In this document: in pieces, positions 1 through 39,305 of the stretch
How positions within the stretch are numbered: the first letter of the stretch is position 1
Layout: each line of letters starts with the position of its first letter
Assembly (NCBI GenBank): GCA_964549355.1
Contig: CAZJUS010000002.1
Coordinates: 1-48,520, forward strand
DNA: 48,520 nt
Source: Candidatus Undinarchaeota archaeon
GTDB lineage: Archaea > SpSt-1190
Reading direction: 5' to 3'
Translations under genes and position numbers: made by a program
The notes under the pieces: generated by a model
Seen by the model: only the letters and a program-made list of their open reading frames with translations
What the model was told of the DNA's origin: nothing
Databases searched by the model: none

Positions 1-42
1 AACGCTACGGCGTTCGACCACGTGGCCTGCCTCCGGCAGGCC
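1..42. repeat. Double-hairpin element, copy A (truncated by window edge; reads outward on minus strand)
   Basis: The reverse complement GGCCTGCCGGAGGCAGGCCACGTGGT + AACGC-CGTA-GCGTT aligns with 48469-48512. It has an 8-bp hairpin, a CCACGTGG palindrome and a second tetraloop hairpin. Confidence 0.5.
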
Positions 43-54
43 GAACAGTTTTGC

Positions 55-84
55 GCTTCGCGGCTCAGCAGGCAGAGTAGTTTT
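55..84. repeat. 30-nt conserved motif, copy A (gcttcgcggctcagcaggcagaGtagtttt)
   Basis: 29/30 identical to 39273-39302, which lies upstream of tRNA-Lys. In minus orientation it is preceded by the hairpin cggcttt-tacg-aaagccg (about 102-119). Confidence 0.55.
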
Positions 85-186
85 TGGCCAAGCTTTGCGA
101 ACGGCTTTTACGAAAGCCGGCAACGGTGGCCATCCCTCGCCCCGCTCCGCGGGCTCGGTGTTCACTACCCCCGTGTCAAGGAACAG

Positions 187-195
187 TTTTATTAA
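187..195 (+). promoter_or_regulatory. TATA-like box (ttttattaa) upstream of the FKBP gene
   Basis: AT-rich box centred about 25 nt upstream of the GTG at 216, which is leaderless-type spacing. The reverse strand also reads as TATA-like (cttaataaaa). Confidence 0.35.
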
Positions 196-215
196 GCCTG
201 AATTTTGGGAAGAAA

Positions 216-875
216 GTGAAAATAGGCCAGTTCGTTGAAATTGAATACAGCGGACGACTTGAGACCGGGGAGATTTTTGATTCAACCGACCCGAAGGAGT
301 TCAAGGAAGCAGGAGGCCCCGTCACCATTATCATGGGTGCGGGCCACCTCATCAAGGGCATAGAGAAGGCCATGCTGGAAATGAAGCCGGGCGAGGAGCG
401 CGATCTGGACATACCTCCTGAGGACGGCTTCGGCAGGAGGGACCCCAAACTCATCAAGCTTTTCAAAGTGAAGGAGTTCCGAAAGCAGGATGTAGTCCCC
501 TACCCTGGACTGCGGGTGACTATAGACAGCAAGCTGGGTTCGGTGGTGAGCGTCAATTCCGGGAGGATCATTGTTGACTTCAACAACCCCCTGGCGGGGC
601 GCAGGCTCATCTATAAAATAAAAATCAACAGAGAAGTCAAGGACTTGGACGAGCAGCTGAAAGGGTTGCTGAAGTTCCACTTTGGAAAAGCCCTGGCATA
701 CAAGAAAGAGGGGGACAAAATCCTGATAGAGGATGTCCCTGACTTTGCCCGGGAGCGTCTGCGGACTGAGCTGCTGACATACACAGCTTTTAAAACTGTG
801 GAGTTTATTGATAGGAAGACTGGTGATATGAATGAAAAAAATGATCAAACAGGCAAAAATGACCAAAAAAAGTAA
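216..875 (+). CDS. FKBP-type peptidyl-prolyl cis-trans isomerase (long archaeal type)
   Basis: VKIGQFVEIEYSGRLETGEIFDSTD...GAGHLIKGIEKAMLEMKPGE...DFNNPLAGR is typical of archaeal FKBP/SlyD. A GTG at 216 is preferred over the 84 ATG because 84-215 has no FKBP similarity and contains the TATA box. Confidence 0.85.
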   Translation: MKIGQFVEIEYSGRLETGEIFDSTDPKEFKEAGGPVTIIMGAGHLIKGIEKAMLEMKPGEERDLDIPPEDGFGRRDPKLIKLFKVKEFRKQDVVPYPGLRVTIDSKLGSVVSVNSGRIIVDFNNPLAGRRLIYKIKINREVKDLDEQLKGLLKFHFGKALAYKKEGDKILIEDVPDFARERLRTELLTYTAFKTVEFIDRKTGDMNEKNDQTGKNDQKK

Positions 876-1926
876 AGAGGAATACGAGAAGTTCCTGAAC
901 AACCACAAGCCCAATATCAAGGTGCTTGGTGTCGGCGGTGCCGGGGGCAACACTGTTGTAAGGCTTTTGGAGATGGGTGTTGAGGGCACTGAGATGGTGG
1001 CCATCAATACAGACGCCCAGGATTTGGCCAAGATTGAAGCGCCTGAAAAGGTGCTCATCGGCAGGGAGCTGACCCGCGGTCTGGGTGCAGGTTCTGATCC
1101 GAATGTCGGCGAGCAGGCGGCCAAGGAGGATTCAGCACTCCTCAAGAAGGCCATAGGCAACCCCGACCTGGCTTTTGTGACATGCGGTCTGGGTGGTGGC
1201 ACCGGCTCCGGTGCAGCACCCATAGTGGCCGAGCTGGCCAAAAAATCCGGGGCTCTGACAATAGCAGTGGTCACCCTCCCTTTCAACAACGAAGGCATAC
1301 TGAGGTGGGAGAACGCCCGCTACGGCCTTGAGCGCATCAAGAACCATGTCGATGCAGTCATTGTAATCCCCAACCAGAAACTGCTGGAGATAGTGCCTGA
1401 CCTTCCGCTTATAACAGCTTTCCGCGTGGCTGACGAGGTGCTCTCCAACGCAGTCCGTGCAATTACAGTCATGGTCACCAGCCAGGGCATGGTCAATGTG
1501 GACTTTGCCGATTTGAGGGCGGTCATGACCGGTGCAGGGACCGCCTTGATCGGCGTCGGCGAAAGCGACTCGGAGAAGAGGGCGGAGGAAGCAGTCTTCA
1601 AGGCTGTCAACAACCCCCTGCTGGATGTGGAGCTGTCAGGCGCCAAGGGGGCTTTGATTTACATTGAAGGGGGCAAGTCCCTCAAGCTGGAGGAGTCCTA
1701 CAATATAATAGACCTGATAAGCAAATACCTGAGCAGCGATGCCAAGATGATTTGGGGTGTCGGCCTGCCCGACGAGAGTCTGGGCAATACAGTCCGGGTC
1801 CTGGTCATCCTTACCGGCGCCAATATCGGCAAATTCTACTACCCTGAGGGGGAGTCGATGGAGGCCCGGGAGAAGGAAAGGATGGGAGATGAGCTCGGCA
1901 TTGAGTTCGTAGAGGTCGAAGAATGA
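832..1926 (+). CDS. ftsZ: Cell division GTPase FtsZ
   Basis: Contains GVGGAGGNTV and the tubulin signature GGGTGSGAAP. In-frame alternative ATGs lie at 841 and 859. Confidence 0.95.
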   Translation: MKKMIKQAKMTKKSKEEYEKFLNNHKPNIKVLGVGGAGGNTVVRLLEMGVEGTEMVAINTDAQDLAKIEAPEKVLIGRELTRGLGAGSDPNVGEQAAKEDSALLKKAIGNPDLAFVTCGLGGGTGSGAAPIVAELAKKSGALTIAVVTLPFNNEGILRWENARYGLERIKNHVDAVIVIPNQKLLEIVPDLPLITAFRVADEVLSNAVRAITVMVTSQGMVNVDFADLRAVMTGAGTALIGVGESDSEKRAEEAVFKAVNNPLLDVELSGAKGALIYIEGGKSLKLEESYNIIDLISKYLSSDAKMIWGVGLPDESLGNTVRVLVILTGANIGKFYYPEGESMEAREKERMGDELGIEFVEVEE

Positions 1927-2078
1927 GCTGGAAGGACTACAAACGGGTAATCAAGATAGCCCGCAAGCCGACATGGCAGGAGTTCAAGCAGTCTGCTGTC
2001 GTGGTGGGCCTGGGCATGATTGCCATCGGCCTGATTGGCATGCTTTTCAGCTTTGTGTTCAGCTGGATTGGGATTTGA
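1923..2078 (+). CDS. secE: Preprotein translocase subunit SecE / Sec61-gamma (51 aa, below the ORF-track cutoff)
   Basis: My translation is MSWKDYKRVIKIARKPTWQEFKQSAVVVGLGMIAIGLIGMLFSFVFSWIGI. It has one C-terminal TM helix, an ATGA overlap with the ftsZ stop, and the canonical position before spt5-rpl11. Confidence 0.8.
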   Translation: MSWKDYKRVIKIARKPTWQEFKQSAVVVGLGMIAIGLIGMLFSFVFSWIGI

Positions 2079-2098
2079 GACACTGAAAAGGTGAAAAA

Positions 2099-2539
2099 AT
2101 GATATTTGCGGTAAGAACGACGCTGGGGAGGGAGTATGCGGTGGTTGAAAATATAGCAACCGCCACGAGGAAGTTCGGCTACAAAATTTATTCTGCTTTT
2201 GTGCCCAAGGATGTGAAAGGCTATGTTTTTGTGGAGGCCCCCAGCTCTTCCGATGTGCGCGAAGCCGTCACGGGCATACACAATGCCCGTGGCGTGGTCG
2301 ACAAGCCGGTCACTATTGACGAGGTTGCAAACAGCATTGAGTCCAAGCAGGTTGAAGTCAAGCTCAAGAAAGGCGACCTGGTTGAGATAGTGAGCGACCC
2401 GTTCCGGGGCGAGAAGGCAAAAGTTATAAGGGTTGATGAGGTCAAGAGGGAGGTCACAGTCGAAATGATAGAGGCTGCGATTCCAATCCCGACCACCCTG
2501 CCGGTGGAGACGGTGAGGATAATCAAGTCCGCAGAATGA
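2099..2539 (+). CDS. spt5: Transcription elongation factor Spt5 (archaeal NusG)
   Basis: NGN-like N-terminus IFAVRTTLGRE...GYVFVEA, followed by the KOW motif KKGDLVEIVSDPFRGEKAKV. It sits in secE-spt5-rpl11 synteny. Confidence 0.92.
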   Translation: MIFAVRTTLGREYAVVENIATATRKFGYKIYSAFVPKDVKGYVFVEAPSSSDVREAVTGIHNARGVVDKPVTIDEVANSIESKQVEVKLKKGDLVEIVSDPFRGEKAKVIRVDEVKREVTVEMIEAAIPIPTTLPVETVRIIKSAE

Positions 2540-2551
2540 GCAGGTGATGAG

Positions 2552-2992
2552 ATGTCAATGAAGGTAATGGTGTTCCAGATTCCCGCAGGGGAGGCCACTC
2601 CAGGCCCGCCTCTGGGCACTGTCCTGGGGCCTCTCGGTGTTCCGACGCCGCAGATAGTGGCCAAGATGAATGAGGCCACCAAAGAGTTCAAGGGCATGAA
2701 GATGCCGGTCACCCTCAAGGTCGACATGGACACCAAGCAGTTCGAGGTGGAGGTCGGCTCCCCCCCGACTGCAGGCCTGATAAAAAGGCTCATCGGCCTC
2801 GAGAAAGGCACTGCCGACGGCTCTGTCGTGGGCGACATCACCATGGAGCAGGTGAAGGAAGTGGCCCGGCAGAAGATGAAATTCATGAATGCCCCGGATG
2901 AGGAGGCGGCTGTCCGCGAGGTGCTCGGCACATGCAGGAGCATTGGCTTGACTGTGGACGGGAAGCCGGTGAAGGAGCTCCTGAAATCCTGA
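2552..2992 (+). CDS. rpl11: 50S ribosomal protein uL11
   Basis: PAGEATPGPPLGTVLGPLGVPTPQIVAKMNEATKEF is the classic L11 N-terminal domain. Confidence 0.95.
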   Translation: MSMKVMVFQIPAGEATPGPPLGTVLGPLGVPTPQIVAKMNEATKEFKGMKMPVTLKVDMDTKQFEVEVGSPPTAGLIKRLIGLEKGTADGSVVGDITMEQVKEVARQKMKFMNAPDEEAAVREVLGTCRSIGLTVDGKPVKELLKS

Positions 2993-2997
2993 GCCGG

Positions 2998-3519
2998 TTA
3001 TATGAGTGTTTTTTGGCGGTATTCGGGTTGGCCTTTCCTTATGAACAGCTTTTCCACATCAAAGCACTCGTCCAGAATTTCCCTCCACTGCGAAACGCCT
3101 GCAACCTTTGACACATCCGTTGCGAAATCGCCCACGTAGGCTAAAAAAATTTCCGGTTTTTCATGGCCGCCGTAGTCCATATCCTCGTCCCATCCGATTT
3201 GTATTGTCACCGCTTCTATTTCATCCCTTCTGATATTGTACGATTGCCCCACCTCCCCCACTCTGAAGCTGTGGAATTTTTTTGGGTCGAAGACAAACCC
3301 CCTCGCCTGCCGGTGCATATCGTATTTTTCCAACTGCAGTGCTCTGAGATGCTCAAACACCTGCATCAGCTTGTCTCTGAACTTCTCGAAATAAGTTGCG
3401 TCCAGCCCTCCCTGCCGGTATTCGGAAAAACAAGGCATGGCCTCTGCCATTGCATCCAGCTCCCCGGGGGCAGGGGCGGGAAGATATCCGCCGTCCATGG
3501 AAAGGCGTCCGCCGTCCAT
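2998..3519 (-). CDS. Hypothetical protein (173 aa), no recognisable family
   Basis: Long ORF with its own TATA-like box (ttttaaaaata, about 3537-3547 read on the minus strand) about 23 nt upstream of the ATG. The N-terminus is duplicated (MDGGRLS-MDGGYL). Confidence 0.6.
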   Translation of the reverse strand: MDGGRLSMDGGYLPAPAPGELDAMAEAMPCFSEYRQGGLDATYFEKFRDKLMQVFEHLRALQLEKYDMHRQARGFVFDPKKFHSFRVGEVGQSYNIRRDEIEAVTIQIGWDEDMDYGGHEKPEIFLAYVGDFATDVSKVAGVSQWREILDECFDVEKLFIRKGQPEYRQKTLI

Positions 3520-3560
3520 GGAGTCTTTGGAGAGCCTATTTTTAAAATGAGCGGGGCGCC

Positions 3561-3755
3561 TCAGGCGTCCCTGTAATTTTCGTCCAAAGTTTCCCGCTCC
3601 ACCAGGCGCATCGGCACACCTGAAAAAATGCTCATGGGGTCCTCCTGGTATGACCTTATCAAGTCGTATTTTTCCAATTCCCGGTACGGGGAGGCTCCGC
3701 CGTCGCCCGCACCGCCATCAACACCGGCATATTGTCCTCTTTTTTCTTTTTCCAT
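3561..3755 (-). CDS. Hypothetical small protein (64 aa)
   Basis: ORF co-directional with 2998-3519 and immediately upstream of it. It has an acidic, Gly-rich N-terminus and no recognisable family. Confidence 0.4.
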   Translation of the reverse strand: MEKEKRGQYAGVDGGAGDGGASPYRELEKYDLIRSYQEDPMSIFSGVPMRLVERETLDENYRDA

Positions 3756-3906
3756 TTGATCACCGAAGAAAACAGCGGTGACCCTACCGCAACAGCATAA
3801 TAAGCATGTCGAGGCAGAGTCTGCTTTGCATTGTGGAGTGTTGGTCCCGCGGTATATAAATGTTTACGCACCGACAACCATATTATTCCCTGCCGTCAGC
3901 CTTTCT

Positions 3907-4116
3907 ATGCAGATTCTCGTTGCCATAGATGAGCTCAGGAAGATAGAGGCCGAAACCGGCCTGAAGCTCAGGCGCCTTAAAAAGGCCGGCCTCAAGTGGC
4001 GCATGCCCCCCGACTGGGACGAAAAGAAGTTCGACGCCCTGGTGGTGGAGGTGCCGGACGATGCTGCGCCCGGCATTTTCGAGAAGTATAAAATTAAATT
4101 TTTGAGGAAGGTTTAA
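3907..4116 (+). CDS. Hypothetical small protein (69 aa)
   Basis: An internal ATG of ORF 3778-4116 gives MQILVAIDELRKIEAETGLKLRRLKK. A tatataaa box lies at 3853-3860, about 50 nt upstream. Confidence 0.4.
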   Translation: MQILVAIDELRKIEAETGLKLRRLKKAGLKWRMPPDWDEKKFDALVVEVPDDAAPGIFEKYKIKFLRKV

Positions 4117-4162
4117 TTTTGCGGAAATTGCCGGCATGAATTAATGGCATGTCAATCTTAAA

Positions 4163-4170
4163 TTATATAA
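4163..4170 (+). promoter_or_regulatory. TATA box (ttatataa) for the 4193 gene
   Basis: It lies in a very AT-rich spacer and is centred about 26 nt upstream of the ATG at 4193. Confidence 0.4.
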
Positions 4171-4192
4171 ACTTATATAATATATTAACACC

Positions 4193-4471
4193 ATGGTTGA
4201 AGTTCAAAAACCAATTTTACACTATCCCCGCTTGGACACTGTCCTGATGATTGAAAAATTCATTAAGGAAAACAGCGGGGACTTCAAGAAGAGCAAGTTG
4301 TGGAAAAGTCTGCCGAAAAAAGTGATGTATCAAACTTTTTGTGTGGTTATTGATTATCTTATTGAATCCGGAAAAGTTGGAGTGGACCGCGAAGGTCATA
4401 TTGCCTGGATTTACAACCCCGAACTGGTAAAAAAATACACTGCCGGGCAAAATTTGCTTTGGAGGTCATAG
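4193..4471 (+). CDS. Hypothetical protein, possible antitoxin partner of the downstream RelE-like gene
   Basis: 92 aa from a low-GC segment. The stop at 4471 is 1 nt before the GTG of the next ORF. The role is inferred from position only. Confidence 0.45.
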   Translation: MVEVQKPILHYPRLDTVLMIEKFIKENSGDFKKSKLWKSLPKKVMYQTFCVVIDYLIESGKVGVDREGHIAWIYNPELVKKYTAGQNLLWRS

Positions 4472-4472
4472 T

Positions 4473-4762
4473 GTGGAACAACCATCGCGGCTGGTTTTCG
4501 CTGACGCCAAACTCAAAAAAGCCTTTGAAGACCTGAAAAATTCTACAGAAGAGGGTAAGCGACTCTTCCGATTCCTAATACAGGCATTTGAAAATTTGGA
4601 GAAAAATGCTCTCAAAAGTATCAAATTGATAATTGTTGGAAGTATAATCTCCCCAATGCATGGAGATTGATTTATTCAGTCGCAAGAGACGAGGTCATAG
4701 TAATAAGTATTGTCTTGGAGTGGTTGGATCATAAAAACTACGAAAGGAGATTCAAATACTGA
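4473..4762 (+). pseudogene. RelE/ParE-superfamily-like toxin gene, frameshifted
   Basis: The N-terminal part is in frame 0 (MEQPSRLVFADAKLKKAFEDLKNS...ENLEKNA). The C-terminal part is in another frame (4592-4762): KYQIDNCWKYNLPNAWRLIYSVARDEVIVISIVLEWLDHKNYERRFKY. Confidence 0.55.
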
Positions 4763-4801
4763 ACTGCACAAGTGTTTAATACTTCCGCGCTTTAGCTTTC
4801 C

Positions 4802-5887
4802 GTGGTCCAGCCCTTCACCTACGCCGTCGGCACCTTCATCGGCATCGGGGTCCTGATACTGCCCATGCTCTTCCAGCAGGCGGGCATCATACTCGGGACT
4901 GCAGGGCTTCTCTTCTCTGCGCTGCTCCTTTTATTCCTGGCATTCATAGTCATGGATTTGATCAGGCTGGCCAAGAAGGACCTGCCCGGCTCGGTGGAGC
5001 AGTATCTTGGAGGGGGCAGGCCTTTGGTCCGCATATCCTTGGCGGTCTTCACCTACGGTGCGCTGGTGGCCTATGTGGTGGGGGCGGGCAGCCAGATGGC
5101 GGCGCTCGCCGGAGGCATGGGGGCCCAGTACTGGGGGGCCCTTTTCTTTGTGCTCGCAGCCATACCAGTCCTCCAGGACAGCAGGACTTTCGGCAAGCTT
5201 GCAGTATACCTTTCTGTTGTCCTCCTGCTCACCCTTGCCCTCCTGATTCCCATGAACATCTCGGCATCGGCATTTTCACCGCCCGCCTTCGGCAGCTGGA
5301 CCGTTGTGCCCTTCCTGCTTTCGGTCTCCATATTCTCCCTTTTCGGCCACACCTCAATCCACAGGATAAGCAGGATGTGCGGGAAGGAGCAGGAGATGAA
5401 GGCCAAGTTTTTCGGCGCATTCTTCCTTTCACTAATAATTTATCTTTTCTACACAACAACCTCAAGCTCAGTCGGGCCGATGGGCGATTTAAGCACAGTC
5501 TCCCTCCTCTTCTATTACGGGCCCTTCATCAGAACCCTGATAACTCTGGTGGCTGTCCTGGCTTTCTACACTTCTTTTGTCAACATTTCCTTGGATTTCG
5601 TTAAGCCCCTTGAGGCGTCCAGGCGCATGCAGTCGGGGGCAGCCCTTTCCCTCCTTTTCTTCCCGACGGCGGTCCTCTATGTCCTGGTGCATCAGTTCGG
5701 CATAATGACCCTGGCTGAGCTGGTGGCCAGGTTCTGCGGTGTCGGCATTGTCATATTTGCCATGACGGCCTGCGTGGCGCATTTCAGGGCTTCCAGAAAG
5801 CACAAAACCGCCATCCCCGGATGGCTGTCGGCAGTCCTGGCTTTTGTGTTTGTGGCCGTTGCAGCCTTCAACATTTTACCGGTCTGA
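4802..5887 (+). CDS. Amino-acid permease-like membrane transporter
   Basis: About 11 predicted hydrophobic segments. The N-terminal GTFIGIGVLILP motif resembles Trp/Tyr-permease and Aa_trans families. It has a GTG start with tttaata about 24 nt upstream. Confidence 0.7.
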   Translation: MVQPFTYAVGTFIGIGVLILPMLFQQAGIILGTAGLLFSALLLLFLAFIVMDLIRLAKKDLPGSVEQYLGGGRPLVRISLAVFTYGALVAYVVGAGSQMAALAGGMGAQYWGALFFVLAAIPVLQDSRTFGKLAVYLSVVLLLTLALLIPMNISASAFSPPAFGSWTVVPFLLSVSIFSLFGHTSIHRISRMCGKEQEMKAKFFGAFFLSLIIYLFYTTTSSSVGPMGDLSTVSLLFYYGPFIRTLITLVAVLAFYTSFVNISLDFVKPLEASRRMQSGAALSLLFFPTAVLYVLVHQFGIMTLAELVARFCGVGIVIFAMTACVAHFRASRKHKTAIPGWLSAVLAFVFVAVAAFNILPV

Positions 5888-6605
5888 GCCCCAATTCAGT
5901 TGCCCAATCCCTTGTTTTCTGCCTCAGCCCGCCCGGCGTTCCTTTCCAGTCAATCCAGACTTCCTCCGGCTTTGGCATGGTTTTTTCTATCATCTGCTCC
6001 AGCATTTCCCGCGTCAAAAAATCAGAGGCATATTTTGGGCAGATGTGGCCGAAATTCATGCCTTCCAGCACTTTTTTGGTAAAATACGGTGTGTAGTGGG
6101 TTCCTCCTACGCCAATCACCGAACTGCCTTCCAGCTCCGCATCAAGCAGATGGACTATCACATCGGCTGCAGTCCGGACAGCTTCCCTGTCCTGCCACTG
6201 TTTTTCCGAGCTTCCAACCTCGACAAAGACAATGGGCACCCCGAAGCTCGGCCCGTGGTGGGTGGCTTCAAGGGAGACTTCATACGGCAGGCTTCTGGCG
6301 GCTCTCAGCCTCTCAAATTCCCTGACAGCCTCGCTGACATAAAGGGCAGGATTGATTGAAAGCACCCCCGGCTCCCCGCCCATGCCGGCGGGCCCGAAGT
6401 TCCCCGGCGTGTGCGCAGTCAGGGTCGGCCTGCCTGAGGCGCTCTTGTGCGAGCTTGCCACTATGACCAGATCCGCAGTCAAGTCCAGGCCCTCCAAATC
6501 AACAATTTTTGAATTAAGCAGGTCGACTTCAGCCCGCCCGTCCAGGGCTCCAGCGATGTTCCGGCTTGCCAGGTTTTCCGCAGAGCCGACTACGATTTTC
6601 TTCAC
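5868..6605 (-). CDS. dtdA: D-aminoacyl-tRNA deacylase, archaeal type
   Basis: SHKSASGRPTLTAHTPGNF...GG.P and LEATHHGPS are motifs typical of the DtdA family. Confidence 0.85.
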   Translation of the reverse strand: MKKIVVGSAENLASRNIAGALDGRAEVDLLNSKIVDLEGLDLTADLVIVASSHKSASGRPTLTAHTPGNFGPAGMGGEPGVLSINPALYVSEAVREFERLRAARSLPYEVSLEATHHGPSFGVPIVFVEVGSSEKQWQDREAVRTAADVIVHLLDAELEGSSVIGVGGTHYTPYFTKKVLEGMNFGHICPKYASDFLTREMLEQMIEKTMPKPEEVWIDWKGTPGGLRQKTRDWATELGLRPVKC

Positions 6606-6672
6606 TCATGCCTTTTTTCAAGGAAGTATTTTTGCCTTGGGAATTTTTTTAAGTGGCGCTCCACCCTACTGT

Positions 6673-7732
6673 ATGAAGAGGCTCGAGAGGAAACTGAGGG
6701 AGATTTACAGTCCCGAGTTGGCAAAACTTATCGTCGGGCGCGAGAAGGCCGCCAAAGGAATTCAAAGGCAAAGGAAGAGGCAGGCGCGGAAGGATAGGCG
6801 CAGTTACCGCCGTGATGTGCCTTTTTTAGCCAGGGAGTATATGGCATCCCGCAGGGCCGGTTTTGATATCCCGGAGGTGGATTTCAAGAAAACCTACGAT
6901 TTTTTTTCCCGGGAGCATGTTGCGGAGATACTGAAGACTGCCGAAGGTCGCGGTGTCGATGCCCAGGAGTATGTTGATTTGATTATTGAATCGTCAGGCC
7001 ACATCCCGCGGCCGGCCGACATGGACAGGGTTTGCGGGGTCTCTTCACTTATTATGCCCTCAGCGGGGGGGGGAATACTCCTGGGAAGACTTTGATGCCT
7101 TTTTCAAAAATTTGATGTCCGCTTCACGGAGTAGATATGGATGGGGCAACGGCGTAAATCCGGACGGACGCCACATCAAAGCCCGAGTTCGTCTGACAAC
7201 TATTCCTCCTTTCTGCTATGAGGAATTTCAGGATGGACGCCACAGCAAAGGGTTGGAAATGGCGTGTCATTTTCTGGAATCTCTGATACGTAAAGGCAGG
7301 GTCGAGAGGGCCCTGGAATTGTCTGAGCGCTTCAAAGAGGGGACAGGACAGCTCAGTTCGCTGGTTCGTATGAGTTGGGTTTATGCACATGTTCCGGACC
7401 ATATGGTGGATACCCTCCTGGACAAATATTCTAACTCCAAAGCAGATGGTCTTTCACTAGATAACGCAGATTCCAGATTCTATGATTTTGTGATTGATGA
7501 AGAAATGGTTGAAACAATTGCGCAGTATAAGGACCTTTCGGAAGGAGGATTTTCAAAAATGGCGGATGTGATTTTTGACATGGTTGTATATGATGTATGT
7601 TCATACGACGATCTTCAAGATCTGCTGTCCAATCCAAACATGAAGCAATTAATATACTGTGCAGATTCGGAAAACCATTTGGACGAATTGTTTCAGATAG
7701 TCCTAAATTTATACAACACCCGCCAATTTTAA
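6673..7732 (+). pseudogene. Orphan gene split by a frameshift at a G9 homopolymer
   Basis: ORF 6673-7095 and ORF 6986-7732 overlap. Removing one G from the run 7065-7073 joins them into a roughly 352-aa ORF. No family was recognised. Confidence 0.55.
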
Positions 7733-7733
7733 G

Positions 7734-7849
7734 GTGGAAATCCGGAAAGTCTCCAATGTCCAGTTGATTATGCTTCTGAAAAGCTCTTGGAGCTGATGCA
7801 CAACGACAGAACGCTTCAGTAGATCATGATGTTGCGGTGCTTCCAGGAT
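7734..7849 (+). pseudogene. Decayed 5' fragment of an rtcB homologue
   Basis: Reads VEIRKVSNVQ...YASEKLLELMHNDRTLQ*I..VAVLPG, compared with the intact RtcB VEVRRVGRVQ...YATEKIMEMMHHDRTLQQIVDVAALPG. It carries an internal deletion, a stop and a 1-nt frameshift. Confidence 0.7.
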
Positions 7850-7910
7850 GGGCTCCAGCGATGTTCCGGCTTGCCAGGTTTTCCGCAGAGCCCACCACTA
7901 TTTTCCTCAT
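7850..7910 (-). pseudogene. Orphaned 5' end of dtdA (codons 1 to about 20)
   Basis: The minus strand reads ATG AGG AAA ATA GTG GTG GGC..., giving MRKIVVGSAENLASRNIAGA. Positions 7850-7892 are identical to 6545-6587 inside intact dtdA. Confidence 0.75.
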
Positions 7911-7930
7911 GAAAGCTCCAGTGAAACTGA

Positions 7931-7937
7931 TTTATAG
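7931..7937 (+). promoter_or_regulatory. TATA-like box (tttatag) for rtcB
   Basis: It lies 20-23 nt upstream of the TTG/GTG start at 7954/7957. Confidence 0.3.
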
Positions 7938-7953
7938 CTTTGACATATAGTCC

Positions 7954-9357
7954 TTGGTGGAGGTTCGCAGGGTCGGCAGGGTGCAGTGGGAGATTCCGAA
8001 GGCAGGGGCGATGAGGGTTCCTGTCCGCATCTATGCAACTGAGAAGATTATGGAGATGATGCACCACGACCGCACCCTCCAGCAGATTGTGGATGTTGCG
8101 GCGCTCCCGGGCATCCACAGGCATGCGCTCCTGATGCCCGACGGCCACGAAGGCTACGGCTTCCCCATCGGCGGGGTGGCCGCTTTCCGGGAGGAGGACG
8201 GCGTTGTCAGCCCCGGAGGAATCGGCTACGACATCAACTGCGGGATGAGGCTCCTGGTCTCTGAGCTTTCAATTGAAGATGTGGAAGGCAAAATTCCCAG
8301 CCTTCTTGAGGAGATTTTCAGAAAGGTTCCGAGCGGGCTCGGCGAAGGCTCCGGCCAGACAATGGACAGGTCCGACTTTCTGGAGCTGGTGTCTGAAGGG
8401 GCCAGGTGGGCCCTGAAGCAGGGGCTTGCGGTTCCGGACGACCTCCGGCATATGGAGGAAGGGGGCAGTATGCCTGCGGACCCGTCGCATCTCAGCCAGA
8501 AGGCAGTCGCCCGCGGGCTGAAGCAGGTGGGCACCCTCGGGGCCGGCAACCATTTCATGGAAATCCAGAGGGTCGAGCGGGTGTTCGGGGACGGTGCTGT
8601 CGCTGAGAAATTCGGCCTCCGCCCGGACCAGATAGTGGTCATGATACACACAGGCTCCCGCGGATTCGGGCACCAGGTCGCCGATGATTACATAAAACTT
8701 ATGCTCGGCGCTGCGGGCAGGTACGGGGTGGAGCTCCCCAATAAACAGCTGGCGGCTGCACCGCTCAACACTCCCGAAGCCGACAAATATCTGGAGTCGA
8801 TGAAGTGTGCTGTGAATTACGCCTTTGTGAACCGGCAGAAAATTGCATTCACTGTCCGGGAGATATTCGACAGTATGCTTGGGGCCAAACTCAAACTGCT
8901 TTATGATGTGGCCCACAATATAGGCAAGTATGAGATTCACAATGGGGAGAAAGTTTTCATCCACCGGAAAGGGGCCACCCGGGCTTTCGGCCCGGGGCGC
9001 GGGGACATCCCCGGCGATTTCCGCTTGGTCGGCCAGCCTGTCATAATCCCGGGTTCAATGGGGACTGCCAGCTATGTCATGGTTGGGCTGGGCAATCCGG
9101 GGAGCTTCGAAAGCAGCTGCCACGGGGCGGGCAGGGTGATGAGCAGGGGCGAAGCCATGCGCCGTCTCGGCAGGGTCTCCATAAAGGGCCAGCTCGAGGT
9201 CAAGGGCATAAGGGTGCGCACGGCCAACCTGCGCAATCTGGCCCAGGAGGCCCCGCAGGCCTACAAGGACATTGATGAGGTTGTGAGGACTGTCCACGAG
9301 TCCGGGATTTCGTCCCCCGTGGCCCGCATGGTGCCCCTCGGGGTCGTCAAGGGCTAA
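7954..9357 (+). CDS. rtcB: RNA-splicing ligase RtcB (3'-phosphate/5'-hydroxyl ligase)
   Basis: Contains GIGYDINCG, GSRGFGHQV, HRKGAT, PGSMGTASY and CHGAGR motifs. The start is either TTG 7954 or GTG 7957. Confidence 0.95.
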   Translation: MVEVRRVGRVQWEIPKAGAMRVPVRIYATEKIMEMMHHDRTLQQIVDVAALPGIHRHALLMPDGHEGYGFPIGGVAAFREEDGVVSPGGIGYDINCGMRLLVSELSIEDVEGKIPSLLEEIFRKVPSGLGEGSGQTMDRSDFLELVSEGARWALKQGLAVPDDLRHMEEGGSMPADPSHLSQKAVARGLKQVGTLGAGNHFMEIQRVERVFGDGAVAEKFGLRPDQIVVMIHTGSRGFGHQVADDYIKLMLGAAGRYGVELPNKQLAAAPLNTPEADKYLESMKCAVNYAFVNRQKIAFTVREIFDSMLGAKLKLLYDVAHNIGKYEIHNGEKVFIHRKGATRAFGPGRGDIPGDFRLVGQPVIIPGSMGTASYVMVGLGNPGSFESSCHGAGRVMSRGEAMRRLGRVSIKGQLEVKGIRVRTANLRNLAQEAPQAYKDIDEVVRTVHESGISSPVARMVPLGVVKG

Positions 9358-9387
9358 ACTCTTTAAGGCCGAAATGCGGGAGAATAT

Positions 9388-9528
9388 ATGAACTACAGCA
9401 CCAGTGTGAGCTTCAAGAACACTTCCGGCCCATTCTCAGCTTTCCTGGTCATGTGCGCCGGATACTTTTTCTTCAGTCTTTTTCTGGTGCTCTCCGTCTG
9501 CGCCCTCTTCGGCCTGATAGACTTTTAA
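9388..9528 (+). CDS. Possible small membrane protein (46 aa, not in the ORF track)
   Basis: My translation is MNYSTSVSFKNTSGPFSAFLVMCAGYFFFSLFLVLSVCALFGLIDF. It has one hydrophobic helix and fills an otherwise empty 190-nt gap. Confidence 0.3.
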   Translation: MNYSTSVSFKNTSGPFSAFLVMCAGYFFFSLFLVLSVCALFGLIDF

Positions 9529-9549
9529 TGCGGTAGTTTTAGGTTTGGG

Positions 9550-10236
9550 GTGGCCATCCTTTCAATCAAAAAAGTCTGGAAAGAATACAAATTTGTGAAT
9601 GCGTTGCGCGGTGTGGATTTGGACATCAATGAAGGCGAGTTTTTGTTCATAATCGGTCCGAGCGGTTCCGGCAAAAGCACACTTCTTCATATTGCAGGCC
9701 TGCTCGATGCCCCTACAAGGGGGCATGTTGAAATCAACGGAAAACTGGTCCCCCGCGATGAGGACCTCAGGGCGAAGCTCCGGCTGAAATTCATGGGTTT
9801 TGTCTTCCAGGATTTCGGGCTTATGTCGTCCCTCAATGCTTTTGAAAACATAGTCCTGCCCTCCGCCTTCTCCGGGAAGCCCCGGCGGGAAAGGGCCCGC
9901 AGGATTGCAGAGGAGCTCGGCATCGGGAACAGGCTCACCCACTATATCGGCCAGCTCAGCGGGGGCGAGAAGCAGAGGGTTGCCATTGCGCGCGCCCTCA
10001 TCAATGACCCGAAGCTGATTATGGCTGACGAACCGACAGGCAATCTGGACAGCAGGACGGGCCTGAAAGTCATGGAGATTCTCCGTGGCCTTGCAAAGCA
10101 AGGCAAGACTGTGGTGGTGGTCTCCCACAACCCGGAGCACATCAAATTTGCCGACAGGGTTGTCCATTTGAGAGACGGAAAAATTGAAAAAATTCAGAAA
10201 GTGAGGATTGCAAAACCAAAAAATAGTATTAAATAG
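9550..10236 (+). CDS. ABC transporter ATP-binding protein (MacB/LolD-like)
   Basis: Walker A GPSGSGKST, signature LSGGEKQRVAIARAL and Walker B LIMADEPTGNLD. Confidence 0.93.
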   Translation: MAILSIKKVWKEYKFVNALRGVDLDINEGEFLFIIGPSGSGKSTLLHIAGLLDAPTRGHVEINGKLVPRDEDLRAKLRLKFMGFVFQDFGLMSSLNAFENIVLPSAFSGKPRRERARRIAEELGIGNRLTHYIGQLSGGEKQRVAIARALINDPKLIMADEPTGNLDSRTGLKVMEILRGLAKQGKTVVVVSHNPEHIKFADRVVHLRDGKIEKIQKVRIAKPKNSIK

Positions 10237-10249
10237 GGAGGCGGGAGAA

Positions 10250-11533
10250 ATGAATATGAGAAAAGAAATCGCATTGTTGTTCATGATGATGGTTGCAGGT
10301 TTCTCTGCAACCCTGGATTACAGTTCAATTGCCACTTCGCCGAGCACCCTTGATGAGCAAGGCTACGTTTATCTGACTTTCTGCTCCGACAAGGTTGATT
10401 TTGTGAAGTTCAAATTTTCCGCCACTGATTTTGAGGTCCTGCCGGCCTCAATTGATGTGGCTTTTTCGGGGACGACTGCTTCACCGGACTGTGAACAGCT
10501 GGTGGTGTTTGTAAAGTCCAGCCGGCCCGGCCAGTTTCTGCTGAAAGTCACAGGAGACTCCGACGAGTGGCAGGTGCCTGTGGTTTTTGAGAAGAAGCTC
10601 CCGTTTTCCGTTTCAGTCAAGGATTCAGTGGTCCACACCGGCTACACCAGCACCTACCTCACAGTGTCCGGGGAAGGCAGGGACGTCTGGATGGACATAG
10701 ACGGCAATGTCGTCGGCCTTGATTCAATCTACCGCAGCACCCTGCCCGCAAATTTTCCGGTCACTTTTTATTTTGAGCGGGCGGGCTTCTATCAACTGCC
10801 CGTTACATTCACTTATCTTTACGGCAACTCGACTATGACCCGGACTTTCAACCTGGGCCTGCGGGTGGAGGAGGCGCCGGTCAAGATTGGCGACGGCATA
10901 GAAGTTCCGTCAGGAGGGCGGGCCAACCTTTCAATATACATTGAATCCCCTGAGACCCTTTACAGCCCCGCCATTTCTTTATCCTCCCCCTGCCTTGAGG
11001 GCGAGCTCCAGAAGTATCCCGAAGTTTTCACAAAAGGGACAGTCAGCTTCAACGTAAAGTCGACATGCGACCCGGGCATATACCCCCTTACTGTTTCAGT
11101 CGGCGACTTTGTCCGGAATGTTTCAATGGAGGTTACAGGCCCTGAGGGGTATGAACTTTTCTTCAACCCGGATATAGTCAAAGGTGAATCAAGCCTGGAG
11201 GTGGTTATTGCCAACAAGGGAAGCAACGACATGAAGGCTGTTTCAGTCAGGCTGCTGGACGGGGAGTATACCAAAGTGAAGGAAGGCAGTTTTCTGGGCG
11301 ACCTTGAAAGCGGGGATTATGATTCAACCACTTTGAGATTCATCCCGAAAAGAAACCCGGTGGCTGTCAATTTTGTGATATCCTACAATCAAGAAGGACA
11401 GAGGCACAATATAACCCGGAGTCTGACCTTCAGCAGAGTCAAGGCGGGCGTCAGTCCATACCTCATTGTGTTGCTTATAGGAGTTGCTTTCTTTGGGTAT
11501 CATAAATTTAGAAATAGGCGCGCTGGTAATTAA
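10250..11533 (+). CDS. Secreted/anchored beta-rich protein encoded between the ABC ATPase and the permease
   Basis: N-terminal hydrophobic signal (IALLFMMMVAGFSA) and a C-terminal TM anchor with a basic tail (LIVLLIGVAFFGYHKFRNRRAGN). A ggagg lies upstream of the ATG at 10250. Confidence 0.7.
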   Translation: MNMRKEIALLFMMMVAGFSATLDYSSIATSPSTLDEQGYVYLTFCSDKVDFVKFKFSATDFEVLPASIDVAFSGTTASPDCEQLVVFVKSSRPGQFLLKVTGDSDEWQVPVVFEKKLPFSVSVKDSVVHTGYTSTYLTVSGEGRDVWMDIDGNVVGLDSIYRSTLPANFPVTFYFERAGFYQLPVTFTYLYGNSTMTRTFNLGLRVEEAPVKIGDGIEVPSGGRANLSIYIESPETLYSPAISLSSPCLEGELQKYPEVFTKGTVSFNVKSTCDPGIYPLTVSVGDFVRNVSMEVTGPEGYELFFNPDIVKGESSLEVVIANKGSNDMKAVSVRLLDGEYTKVKEGSFLGDLESGDYDSTTLRFIPKRNPVAVNFVISYNQEGQRHNITRSLTFSRVKAGVSPYLIVLLIGVAFFGYHKFRNRRAGN

Positions 11534-38857: not shown

Positions 38858-39160
38858 ACCCATCCACCTGAATGGTGTGAATACAATACGGACGAGTGTG
38901 CCTGCCAGATAGCCGATGAAGAGCTTGCCTCCGAAAAGCATGGCTGCCGGGGACGCGGTCCAGTTGGTCGACAGGGCATAAAAACTTGCAGGCAGTACTG
39001 CCGCCAGCAGAGAAAAGACAGAGCCCACCAATCTGCTGACGCTCCCGCGGGTGAAAAGGCCGACAGCAAGCCCGACGGCTATTGGAAGGATCAGACTGCC
39101 TGTTCCGAGATGTATTGGGATGAACCATGAGGCGAGGCCCAGCAGTATGAGTTCAAGCAT
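38831..39160 (-). CDS. Small membrane protein (109 aa)
   Basis: Three or four hydrophobic segments. The ATG (39160-39158) directly abuts the 3' end of tRNA-Lys. Confidence 0.5.
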   Translation of the reverse strand: MLELILLGLASWFIPIHLGTGSLILPIAVGLAVGLFTRGSVSRLVGSVFSLLAAVLPASFYALSTNWTASPAAMLFGGKLFIGYLAGTLVRIVFTPFRWMGSLFKRTGK

Positions 39161-39233
39161 CGGGCCCGGGGGGATTCGAACCCCCGGCCACTGGGTTAAA
39201 AGCCCAGCGCTCTACCGACTGAGCTACGAGCCC
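39161..39233 (-). tRNA. tRNA-Lys (anticodon UUU), no encoded CCA, no intron
   Basis: The minus strand reads GGGCTCG TA GCTC AGTCGGTA GAGC G CTGGG CTTTTAA CCCAG TGGCC GGGGG TTCGAAT CCCCC CGGGCCC G. This folds as a full cloverleaf with one G-U pair in the acceptor stem. Confidence 0.93.
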
Positions 39234-39272
39234 GAACTTTCACGAAGTTCGATCACGGTGCCTGCTTCGCCT

Positions 39273-39302
39273 GCTTCGCGGCTCAGCAGGCAGATTAGTT
39301 TT
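39273..39302. repeat. 30-nt conserved motif, copy B (gcttcgcggctcagcaggcagaTtagtttt), upstream of tRNA-Lys
   Basis: 29/30 identical to 55-84. It lies 39 nt upstream of the mature tRNA 5' end when read on the minus strand. Confidence 0.55.
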
Positions 39303-39305
39303 GAT

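What the first reader, a model, noticed from the sequence alone, without database searches (positions are those of the whole stretch)
6545..7910. 1.3-kb block between dtdA and rtcB flanked by perfect 43-bp direct repeats
Positions 6545-6587, inside intact dtdA, are identical to 7850-7892. Beyond the repeat, both copies continue as dtdA 5' ends but diverge. Toward 6605 the sequence reads GTG AAG AAA ATC GTA GTC. Toward 7910 it reads ATG AGG AAA ATA GTG GTG, about 72% identity.

Between the repeats lie:
- An alternative dtdA start.
- A 67-nt spacer.
- The orphan gene 6673-7732.
- A decayed rtcB 5' fragment (7734-7849) with a deletion, an in-frame stop and a 1-nt shift.

The layout is dtdA - X - rtcB' | dtdA' - spacer - rtcB. 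This is what single-crossover (Campbell-type) integration would produce if a small circular DNA carrying a divergent copy of the dtdA/rtcB divergent-promoter region recombined within the 43-bp identity. A duplication followed by gene conversion is the alternative. Either way, dtdA now uses a replaced start codon and promoter.
Basis: seen in the sequence. Interest (0 to 1): 0.7.

Follow-up and report, generated by a model that had tools for sequence, protein, structure and literature searches.

The report
Strain-variable foreign insert between dtdA and rtcB
An uncultivated Altiarchaeota-like archaeon carries a real 1.3-kb piece of a distant relative's dtdA–rtcB region, including an extra gene with no known relatives, which some strains have and others lack; it is a neat natural case of recombination-driven gene gain, not a new kind of system.

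Summary
6545-6587 equals 7850-7892 (43/43), and the match then drops to 13/18. The layout is dtdA – 67-nt spacer – orphan gene X – decayed rtcB stub | dtdA stub – 46-nt spacer – rtcB.

It is not an assembly artefact. A second assembly spans both junctions, and two more carry the left junction plus X.

The 1,305-bp block is an insertion polymorphism. Two "empty-site" alleles of the same species (98-99.9% identical flanks) have one copy of the 43-mer and the MRKIVVGS dtdA start. One of them comes from the same metagenome as an occupied allele. All related lineages examined have dtdA and rtcB roughly 46-60 nt apart.

The insert is foreign: lower GC, a stub 71% identical to resident rtcB, and a dtdA start closest to a low-GC relative. 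It is an alternative version of the whole intergenic region that includes X.

X is a true ORFan. It is intact in two assemblies and frameshifted (G9 versus G8) in two.

The topology is Campbell-like. However, both 43-mers are resident-type, and relatives are only 56-65% identical there. The repeat therefore looks like duplicated target DNA, or later homogenisation, rather than the crossover substrate.

No recombinase, transposase or terminal inverted repeats were found. Moderately interesting; a known kind of event.

The parts
5868..6605 (-). dtdA (archaeal D-aminoacyl-tRNA deacylase), intact. Codons 7-245 are resident; codons 1-6 are foreign.
   Evidence: PF04414, E=6.5e-59. 99% identical to the empty-allele protein P0002, apart from the N-terminus MKK versus MRK.
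6545..6587 (.). R1, the left copy of the 43-nt direct repeat (dtdA codons 7-20, resident-type).
   Evidence: Identical to the single copy in empty alleles L009 and L014.
6588..6605 (-). v1, the foreign first six codons of dtdA (GTG AAG AAA ATC GTA GTC = MKKIVV), now the working start.
   Evidence: 13/18 identical to the resident start and 16/18 to the low-GC relative L010. The differences are a start-codon change, one K/R change and three synonymous changes.
6606..6672 (.). Spacer 1, a 67-nt foreign divergent intergenic region. It has A/T-rich TATA-like boxes about 25 nt from the dtdA GTG (rc of 6622-6635) and from the X ATG (6644-6653).
   Evidence: No similarity to the 46-nt spacer of relatives. 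Promoter role is inferred from box-to-start distances only.
6673..7732 (+). Gene X, an ORFan (352 aa when intact). Here it is frameshifted at the G9 run 7066-7074. The N-terminal 65 aa are very basic (pI 11.5) and the C-terminal third is acidic. GC falls from 54% to 37% along the gene.
   Evidence: Intact (G8) in L002 and L015. Only one frame is open; the other five have 11-19 stops. No homologue in 5.8 G or 1.84 G proteins, Pfam, PHROGs, PADLOC, NCBIfam, PDB, IMG/VR, phages or plasmids.
7707..7712 (+). TTTATA box inside the 3' end of X, 27 nt upstream of the stub's GTG. It probably marks the donor's rtcB promoter.
   Evidence: Same box and distance as upstream of rtcB in the window and in relatives L005, L010, L011 and L012. 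Inferred.
7734..7849 (+). rtcB' stub, a foreign and decayed 5' fragment of an rtcB gene (about codons 1-52).
   Evidence: 82/116 identical to resident rtcB and 63% to L005 and L011. It has a 40-nt deletion, TAG for CAG and a 1-nt deletion. GC is 47%, against 60.5% for the resident equivalent.
7850..7892 (.). R2, the right copy of the 43-nt repeat. It is part of the displaced dtdA 5' stub.
   Evidence: The junction 7849/7850 is also present in L001 and L017.
7893..7910 (-). v2, the original first six codons of dtdA (ATG AGG AAA ATA GTG GTG = MRKIVV), now an orphan stub.
   Evidence: Identical to the working dtdA start of empty alleles L009 (protein P0002) and L014.
7911..7956 (.). Spacer 2, the original 46-nt divergent promoter region. 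One central TATA (ATTTATAG, 7930-7937) lies about 23-26 nt from both start codons. It still drives rtcB.
   Evidence: The box is conserved in the closest relatives L010 and L011; L005 and L012 have TTTTAAAG at the same distance. Function is inferred.
7957..9357 (+). rtcB (tRNA-splicing ligase), resident and intact.
   Evidence: PF01139, E=2e-158. The nearest relative is 74% identical, from Candidatus Altiarchaeota.

Best explanation
The 1.3-kb block is a real, strain-polymorphic insertion of foreign DNA. It sits in the 5' end of dtdA of an uncultivated Altiarchaeota-like archaeon.

What was inserted. The foreign DNA is 6588-7849 (1,262 bp). It is a copy of the same locus from an unsampled, lower-GC related lineage in which an extra gene, X, lies between dtdA and rtcB. 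In order it holds:
- the donor's first six dtdA codons;
- the donor's dtdA/X divergent promoter region;
- X;
- the donor's rtcB promoter box;
- the first ~52 codons of the donor's rtcB.

How it was joined. Host recombination joined it, not a transposase or integrase.
- The left junction is homology-guided and in frame inside dtdA, at codon 6/7.
- The right junction (7849/7850) is illegitimate. It links the donor rtcB fragment to resident dtdA 43 nt 'behind' the left junction.
- As a result, 43 nt of resident dtdA are duplicated rather than deleted.
- The outcome is topologically the same as a Campbell-type single crossover. It could arise from a circularised fragment, or from a linear fragment or template switch involving two chromosome copies.

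Consequences (inferred).
- dtdA stays intact, but uses a GTG start, Lys2 and a new upstream region.
- X gets its own TATA-like box.
- The old dtdA stub and the old shared TATA box stay in place and keep driving rtcB.
- The two 43-mers allow precise loss of the block.
- X is probably a functional but dispensable accessory gene. It is intact in some strains and knocked out by a G8-to-G9 slip in others.
For: Real structure:
- L001 (another sample, 15 SNPs from the window) spans both junctions with no differences between 6472 and 11190.
- L002 and L015 carry the left junction plus X.
- L017 starts 6 nt inside the stub and runs through R2 into rtcB.

Insertion polymorphism:
- L009 and L014 read dtdA body – one R – v2 – spacer 2 – rtcB. 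Their flanks are 98.3-99.9% identical to the window.
- L014 and the occupied L002 come from the same sample, ERZ27248407.

Ancestral state:
- dtdA and rtcB are roughly 46-60 nt apart, with conserved synteny, in L005-L008.
- L010, L011 and L012 show the same arrangement.
- L016 shows it too.

Foreign origin:
- GC and GC3 fall across X and the stub.
- The stub is 71% identical to resident rtcB.
- v1 is 16/18 identical to L010 and 13/18 to the resident start. The changes follow an orthologue-like, mostly synonymous pattern.

The block is a whole alternative intergenic region:
- A TATA box sits at the conserved distance upstream of the stub's start codon, inside the 3' end of X.

Both R copies are resident-type:
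- They are identical to the empty alleles, while relatives are 24-28/43 identical there.

No mobility machinery:
- X has no family hits.
- No terminal inverted repeats were found and no Rfam match.

X is likely constrained:
- It has no lesions in 1,059 nt in the G8 alleles. The adjacent 116-nt stub has 3 lesions (Poisson p between 1e-9 and 1e-3).

Experimental precedent:
- In E. coli, crosses designed to detect homology-facilitated illegitimate recombination mostly gave duplications of 109-950 bp. These came from single crossovers with truncated circular molecules (PMC3240628).
Against: - No donor was found. X and the dtdA–X–rtcB arrangement exist nowhere else in the databases searched, so the donor locus is inferred.
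- No reads were available, so physical linkage rests on independent assemblies.
- The right junction shows no clear microhomology. It has only a G/GG overlap, or TCCA after a 4-nt offset.
- Classical homology-facilitated illegitimate recombination deletes recipient DNA rather than duplicating it.
- The stub's three lesions sit oddly with a block that has zero substitutions among four occupied alleles. They must predate the alleles' common ancestor, or have arisen in the donor or during integration.
- Contigs with intact X break at 7733/7734 and resume at 7844 in two assemblies. This hints at further, unseen allele types.
Confidence: 0.72

Rival explanations
1. One reading: a small circular DNA (plasmid-like, or a circle excised from another host) carried X plus captured dtdA/rtcB flank sequence. 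It integrated by one homologous crossover inside a pre-existing 43-bp identity. It can leave again through the same repeats, in an in/out cycle run by host recombination.
For: - The product topology is exactly that of a single crossover: one R in empty sites and two in occupied sites.
- The block holds fragments of both flanking genes, as after an imprecise excision.
- E. coli precedent exists for circularised truncated molecules giving short duplications.
- Occupied and empty alleles coexist in one sample.
Against: - A divergent circle would not carry 43 nt identical to the host. Relatives are 56-65% identical there, with identical runs of 5 nt or less.
- A crossover within a diverged segment would leave reciprocal chimeric repeats, and both copies are purely resident-type.
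- 1.3 kb with one ORFan and no recognisable Rep makes an unlikely replicon.
- There was no hit in IMG/VR, phage or plasmid collections.
- Both empty alleles carry A at 6543 and all four occupied alleles carry C. The empties are therefore not fresh pop-outs.
Confidence: 0.17
2. In-place origin: a ~270-bp tandem duplication of the dtdA-5'/spacer/rtcB-5' region in this lineage. X then inserted into one copy, the copies diverged, and gene conversion kept the 43-mer identical.
For: The duplicated parts (dtdA 5' end and rtcB 5' end) are in the order and orientation a tandem duplication would give.
Against: - It needs about 29% divergence plus a GC drop in the stub. Meanwhile the neighbouring R2-v2 stub stays 60/60 identical to working empty alleles, and the flanks differ by 0.1-1.7%.
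- v1 resembles another lineage (L010, 16/18) more than the resident start.
- The step from 0/43 to 5/18 mismatches is abrupt.
- No related lineage has any trace of the duplication or of X.
Confidence: 0.04
3. Selfish cassette: X encodes a new kind of recombinase or homing-type nuclease. It targets the dtdA 5' end or the dtdA–rtcB promoter. The 43-mer is an att-like or cleavage-repair site, and the block replaces the displaced gene end, as phage 21 and e14 do at icd (comparison from my own knowledge).
For: - Direct repeats bound the element, and empty sites have one copy.
- The element supplies a working replacement for the displaced dtdA start.
- X has a strongly basic N-terminal helix (pI 11.5).
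- X appears constrained relative to the stub.
- The block is identical in four assemblies from at least three samples.
Against: - X matches no integrase, transposase, HNH, LAGLIDADG, GIY-YIG or PD-(D/E)xK model.
- X is seen at one locus in one species only.
- X is frameshifted in half the alleles.
- The rtcB stub has no role in a site-specific model.
- R shows no significant secondary structure (z=-0.97).
Confidence: 0.05
4. Assembly artefact: two strain variants were merged through the shared 43-60-nt repeat.
For: - The source is a metagenome with coexisting alleles.
- Contigs break near the block in two samples.
Against: - The stub|R2 junction is not present in either simple variant and is a novel joint. 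It is seen in the window, L001 and L017, from different samples and pipelines.
- L001 spans everything at k=141, longer than the repeat.
- No two-strain mixture of the dtdA–X–rtcB and dtdA–rtcB forms can yield a truncated, decayed rtcB fragment abutting dtdA codon 20.
Confidence: 0.02

Closest known systems
Single-crossover (Campbell-type) insertion-duplication by host homologous recombination, as seen with truncated circularised molecules in E. coli conjugation (PMC3240628)
   Same: - The insert is bounded by a direct duplication of target sequence.
- The empty site has one copy.
- No element-encoded recombinase is needed.
- Precise loss is possible through the repeats.
   Different: - The duplication is only 43 bp, against 109-950 bp in the experiments.
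- Both copies are resident-type although the neighbouring donor sequence is about 28% diverged.
- This is a natural event in an uncultivated archaeon, and no circle has been shown.
Homology-facilitated illegitimate recombination (Acinetobacter, S. pneumoniae, P. stutzeri; summarised in PMC3240628 and PMC6382021)
   Same: - Foreign DNA is captured with one junction in homologous sequence (in frame in dtdA) and one illegitimate junction.
- The insert is about 1 kb.
- The donor is diverged beyond the range of ordinary homologous recombination.
   Different: - Classical events delete a similar length of recipient DNA and show 3-10-bp microhomology.
- Here 43 bp are duplicated, and microhomology at 7849/7850 is at best 1-2 nt.
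- The homologous 'anchor' on the donor side cannot be seen.
Displacement arrays with orphaned gene ends (V. cholerae T6SS effector-immunity modules, PMC5361080; Rhs/CDI orphan modules)
   Same: - An incoming module enters through a conserved gene end.
- It leaves the displaced end of the resident gene as a stub next to it.
- Presence or absence varies between close strains.
   Different: - The 5' ends of housekeeping genes and a divergent promoter are involved, not toxin C-termini.
- The cargo is a single ORFan with no toxin or immunity signature (PADLOC gave none).
Integrative elements that rebuild the gene they enter (phage 21 and e14 in icd; tRNA-targeting elements) – from my own knowledge, not tested here
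   Same: The element brings a diverged replacement for the displaced gene end, so the target gene stays intact. The original end persists as a stub beside an att-like repeat.
   Different: There is no integrase. The replaced end is the 5' end together with its promoter. The element also carries a stub of the other neighbour, rtcB.

Membership tests
Campbell-type single-crossover insertion-duplication | Insert flanked by direct repeats of target sequence; empty allele with a single copy | tested here: met
   R1 equals R2 over 43/43 nt. L009 and L014 have one copy and lack the 1,305 bp.
Campbell-type single-crossover insertion-duplication | The repeat is the homology shared by circle and chromosome. 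With a diverged donor, the two copies are reciprocal donor/resident chimeras. | tested here: not met
   Both copies are identical to the empty-allele sequence. The equivalent segment in four related lineages is 24-28/43 identical. Later homogenisation could hide this.
Campbell-type single-crossover insertion-duplication | Circular intermediate | not testable with these tools
   This needs reads or PCR for a stub–R–v1 junction. No X-bearing contig was found in IMG/VR, plasmid or phage collections.
Homology-facilitated illegitimate recombination | One junction within homologous sequence | tested here: met
   The left junction, 6587/6588, lies in frame inside dtdA. The foreign side continues as dtdA codons 6-1, 13/18 identical.
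Homology-facilitated illegitimate recombination | Other junction illegitimate, with 3-10-bp microhomology | tested here: inconclusive
   7849/7850 joins rtcB codon ~52 to dtdA codon 20, in opposite orientation. Only a G/GG overlap is visible. The donor sequence beyond the joint is unknown.
Homology-facilitated illegitimate recombination | Recipient DNA between the junctions is deleted | tested here: not met
   No resident base is missing relative to L009 and L014. Instead, 43 nt are duplicated.
Site-specific integrative element (tyrosine/serine recombinase, att sites) | Element- or neighbour-encoded integrase | tested here: not met
   X is the only gene in the block. It has no Pfam, NCBIfam, PHROGs or PDB hit. 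The flanking genes are dtdA and rtcB.
Insertion sequence / transposon | Transposase, terminal inverted repeats, short target-site duplication | tested here: not met
   There is no transposase. No terminal inverted repeats lie at 6588/7849. The 43-nt duplication is far longer than the roughly 2-15 bp usual for transposases (figure from my own knowledge). The ends are gene fragments homologous to the target locus.
Free-standing homing endonuclease gene | Recognisable nuclease domain; intergenic position between conserved genes, with co-converted flanks | tested here: not met
   The position and diverged flank tracts resemble this family, but no nuclease domain was detected. The AlphaFold model is unusable (pLDDT 42).
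DtdA (PF04414) and RtcB (PF01139) gene identities | Full-length match to the family model | tested here: met
   DtdA: residues 43-241 match model positions 4-203 of 205. RtcB: residues 44-467 match model positions 1-426 of 426.

The most novel reading that the evidence does not exclude
The block may be a minimal selfish cassette that carries its own 'homology arms'. These would be the promoter-bearing stubs of dtdA and rtcB picked up from earlier hosts. X would be a new protein, such as a nuclease or recombination mediator acting on the empty dtdA–rtcB promoter, that promotes the block's own copying into empty alleles. The block would hop between Altiarchaeota lineages and leave and re-enter through the 43-bp repeats. 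The already-decayed stub and the unresolved variant region over 7735-7843 would then be traces of repeated rounds of such transfer.
Probability: 0.06. Interest if true: 0.8.

Novelty: new member of a known kind. Interest (0 to 1): 0.35.

Why it matters
It gives a clean natural example, with both occupied and empty alleles in the same community, of how an uncultivated archaeon gains an accessory gene at a housekeeping locus. The route is recombination with a diverged copy of the same locus. It leaves gene stubs and swaps the start codon and promoter of an intact housekeeping gene.

It shows that short flanking repeats in metagenome-assembled genomes can mark real recombination joints rather than assembly errors.

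It also flags a lineage-restricted ORFan that seems to be under selection yet is switched off by a G-tract slip in part of the population.

It does not reveal a new class of mobile element or mechanism.

Tried and rejected
Function and relatives of X:
- Pfam, PHROGs, PADLOC, NCBIfam and PDB sequence searches found nothing.
- The word-indexed 5.8 G protein search and the exhaustive 1.84 G HMMER search found only X itself.
- IMG/VR, phage and plasmid collections gave no match.
- The AlphaFold single-sequence model had pLDDT 42. I did not run a fold search, because the matches would be meaningless.

Looking for the donor:
- The GTDB genome scan with DtdA found only relatives at 41-46% identity.
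- I inspected the closest DtdA and RtcB relatives and their contigs. All have the empty arrangement.
- The stub's translation does not single out any sampled lineage.

Structural ideas:
- No significant hairpin or cruciform forms in or around the 43-mer or the stub.
- There is no Rfam match in 5800-8200.
- No terminal inverted repeats were found.
- No second copy of X or of the block exists in the window.

Junction microhomology and linked SNP:
- I examined a possible TCCAGG/TCCA microhomology at the right junction. It needs a 4-nt offset and is compatible with chance.
- I considered the linked SNP at 6543 as a possible extension of the donor tract and rejected it. That would require the donor to match the resident over all 43 nt.

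Full report

Yes. Positions 6545-6587 and 7850-7892 are identical over 43 nt, and the match continues to 60 nt at 93%. An exact 43-mer repeat is expected about 1.5e-17 times by chance in 48.5 kb. A self-comparison of the whole window finds only one other, unrelated 30-nt repeat.

- dtdA (5868-6605, minus strand) matches PF04414. rtcB (7954/7957-9357, plus strand) matches PF01139. Both are full-length matches.
- Beyond the repeat, the left copy continues as GTG AAG AAA ATC GTA GTC and the right copy as ATG AGG AAA ATA GTG GTG. These are 13/18 identical.
- Between the repeats lie a 67-nt spacer and an ORF (X, 6673-7732) broken by one extra G in a G9 run at 7066-7074.
- Starting 1 nt after the X stop codon is a 116-nt rtcB 5' fragment. 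It is 82/116 identical to the resident gene. It carries a 40-nt deletion, TAG in place of CAG, and a 1-nt deletion.

**2. Is it an assembly artefact?**

I could not map reads, but independent assemblies answer most of the question.

- L001 is an 11.3-kb MEGAHIT k141 contig from ENA analysis ERZ27248172. It matches window 1-11314 with 15 SNPs and no gaps. It has no difference between 6472 and 11190, so it spans both junctions.
- L002 (ERZ27248407) and L015 (JGI 3300021503) carry dtdA, the left junction and X.
- L017 (JGI, same sample as L015) starts 6 nt inside the stub and runs through R2 into rtcB.
- The joint at 7849/7850 fuses a decayed rtcB fragment to dtdA codon 20. It cannot be produced by merging a dtdA–X–rtcB strain with a dtdA–rtcB strain.
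- The final k-mer of 141 exceeds the 60-nt repeat.

I put the artefact explanation at about 2%.

**3. Insertion polymorphism**

The closest DtdA in the protein collection is P0002, 99% identical. It begins MRKIVVGS, which is the variant encoded by the orphan stub at 7893-7910.

- Its contig, L009, comes from a different project (ERZ23491060). It reads dtdA body – one copy of the 43-mer – v2 – the 46-nt spacer – rtcB, and lacks the 1,305-bp block. The flanks are 98.3-98.9% identical to the window.
- A second empty allele, L014, comes from the same sample as the occupied L002. Downstream of the repeat it is 99.9% identical to the window over 5.5 kb.
- The block is therefore present or absent among co-occurring strains of one species.
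- In every related lineage I could retrieve, dtdA and rtcB sit back to back, roughly 46-60 nt apart, with conserved neighbours. These are L005-L008 (DtdA 72% identical), L010, L011/L016 (Candidatus Altiarchaeota, RtcB 74%) and L012.
- The empty arrangement is thus ancestral.

**4. What the block is**

The foreign DNA is 6588-7849.

- GC falls from about 56-61% in dtdA and rtcB to 54% in the first part of X and 37% in its last third. The stub has 47% GC, against 60.5% for the equivalent resident stretch.
- The six foreign dtdA codons differ from the resident ones by the start codon, one Lys/Arg change and three synonymous changes. That pattern suggests an orthologue rather than decay. They match the low-GC relative L010 best (16/18).
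- The stub's translation (VEIRKVSNVQ… YASEKLLELMHNDRTLQ) looks like an ordinary diverged RtcB N-terminus.
- When the sequences upstream of rtcB start codons are aligned, the closest relatives have a TATA box (ATTTATAG, or TTTTAAAG in L005 and L012) about 26 nt upstream. The last 30 nt of the X ORF contain AAATTTATAC 27 nt upstream of the stub's GTG.
- The 67-nt spacer has its own A/T-rich boxes about 25 nt from the dtdA GTG and from the X ATG.

The block is therefore a complete alternative version of the dtdA–rtcB intergenic region: dtdA start, promoter, X, rtcB promoter, rtcB start. The simplest source is the same locus in an unsampled related lineage that has X between the two genes. The promoter roles are inferred from box positions only.

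**5. Gene X**

X is 352 aa when intact (P0001; G8 in L002 and L015) and frameshifted (G9) in the window and L001.

- The G-tract state follows the flanking SNP haplotype, so it is probably a real polymorphism rather than a sequencing error.
- Only one of six frames is open; the others have 11-19 stops.
- X has no homologue anywhere:
  - the 5.8 G-protein search returned only X itself;
  - exhaustive HMMER over 1.84 G representatives returned only its own C-terminal fragment;
  - Pfam, PHROGs, PADLOC, NCBIfam, PDB, IMG/VR, phage and plasmid searches returned nothing.
- The AlphaFold single-sequence model is unusable (pLDDT 42). It suggests a mostly helical protein.
- The first 65 residues are very basic (pI 11.5) and the last third is acidic.
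- The 116-nt stub beside X carries three disabling lesions, while 1,059 nt of X carry none in the G8 alleles. X therefore seems to have been under purifying selection, unless the stub lesions arose during the integration itself (inference).
- Its function remains unknown. My best guess is a dispensable nucleic-acid-binding accessory protein.

**6. Mechanism**

- The 43-mer is unlikely to have been the shared substrate. The equivalent segment is only 24-28/43 identical in four related lineages, with no identical run longer than 5 nt. Both copies in the window are identical to the empty alleles.
- A crossover with a diverged circle would leave reciprocal chimeras.
- I therefore favour this reading: the left joint was guided by (weak) homology within the dtdA 5' end, and the right joint was illegitimate. 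It landed 43 nt on the 'wrong' side, so resident DNA was duplicated.
- Either a circularised fragment, or a linear fragment or template switch engaging two chromosome copies, would give this result.
- Later homogenisation of both repeat copies by allelic recombination with empty alleles is also possible.
- Experimental work in E. coli shows both outcomes. Homology-facilitated illegitimate recombination proper gives a deletion with 3-10-bp microhomology. More often, truncated circular molecules gave short duplications by single crossover (PMC3240628).
- Similar one-sided events have been proposed to explain orphaned gene remnants in Vibrio cholerae T6SS clusters (PMC5361080). They have also been invoked for transformation with DNA diverged by more than 15% in Bacillus subtilis (PMC6382021).
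- There is no sign of a transposase, integrase, terminal inverted repeats, structured RNA or unusual DNA structure.

**7. Rejected alternatives**

- A tandem duplication in place followed by gene conversion fails on two counts. It would need about 29% divergence and a GC shift in the stub while the adjacent 60-nt dtdA stub stayed identical to working alleles. The foreign dtdA start also resembles another lineage more than the resident one.
- A site-specific or homing-type selfish element remains formally possible (about 5%), but nothing in X supports it.

**8. Loose ends**

- Contigs with the intact-X allele end at 7733 or 7734 in two unrelated assemblies. In the JGI sample the next contig starts at 7844. 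The 109-nt stub interior probably exists in more than one version in those populations, but I could not retrieve it.
- SNP 6543, two bases left of R1 and synonymous, is C in all four occupied alleles and A in both empty alleles. The sampled empties are therefore not recent pop-outs of the sampled occupied alleles.
- The block has no substitutions among the four occupied alleles. This fits a single, fairly recent origin of the sampled copies.

**9. Verdict**

This is a well-documented natural example of a known class of event: recombination-mediated capture of a diverged copy of the same locus, with a short target duplication, gene stubs and a promoter/start swap. It occurs in an uncultivated Altiarchaeota-like archaeon and carries a species-restricted ORFan. 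I rate the interest as moderate (0.35) and the novelty as a new member of a known kind.

Noticed in passing
window 1-85 and 39240-39305: A ~70-nt repeated element with a 29/30-identical core (55-84 = 39273-39302). The second copy lies directly 5' of tRNA-Lys(UUU) (39160-39234, minus strand). Both the window and the independent contig L001 end within 4 nt of the first copy. It is probably a multi-copy tRNA-upstream element that breaks assemblies.
   Followed up: partly
window 7735-7843 (L002 end, L015 end, L017 start): In two independent assemblies, the contigs carrying intact X stop at the X stop codon (7733 and 7734). In the JGI sample the next contig begins at 7844. This suggests that a second, unseen version of the rtcB stub coexists in those populations.
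   Followed up: partly
window 7066-7074: A G-tract length polymorphism in X. G9 (frameshift) occurs in the window and L001; G8 (intact 352-aa ORF) occurs in L002 and L015. The state tracks the flanking SNP haplotype, so it looks like a real on/off difference between strains.
   Followed up: partly
window 5508-5587 versus L009: The empty-allele strain L009 lacks 80 nt inside the 361-aa membrane-protein ORF (4802-5887). The loss is not a multiple of three, so the gene is disrupted there, or the short contig is misassembled.
   Followed up: no
window 7911-7956 and the homologous spacers in L010, L011, L012 and L005: The ancestral dtdA–rtcB spacer is about 46 nt. It has a single central TATA box (ATTTATAG or TTTTAAAG) about 23-26 nt from both start codons. 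This implies one shared box serving two divergent, probably leaderless genes.
   Followed up: partly
window 6543: A synonymous SNP two bases left of R1 (Leu CTG/CTT in dtdA). It is C in all four occupied alleles and A in both empty alleles, so it is perfectly linked to the presence of the block.
   Followed up: partly
window 3500-4800: An AT-rich stretch (GC 34-44%, against a window mean of 52%). It holds only small unannotated ORFs between the L11/Spt5/SecE cluster and the membrane-protein gene. The gene content of this interval differs from the L005 lineage.
   Followed up: no
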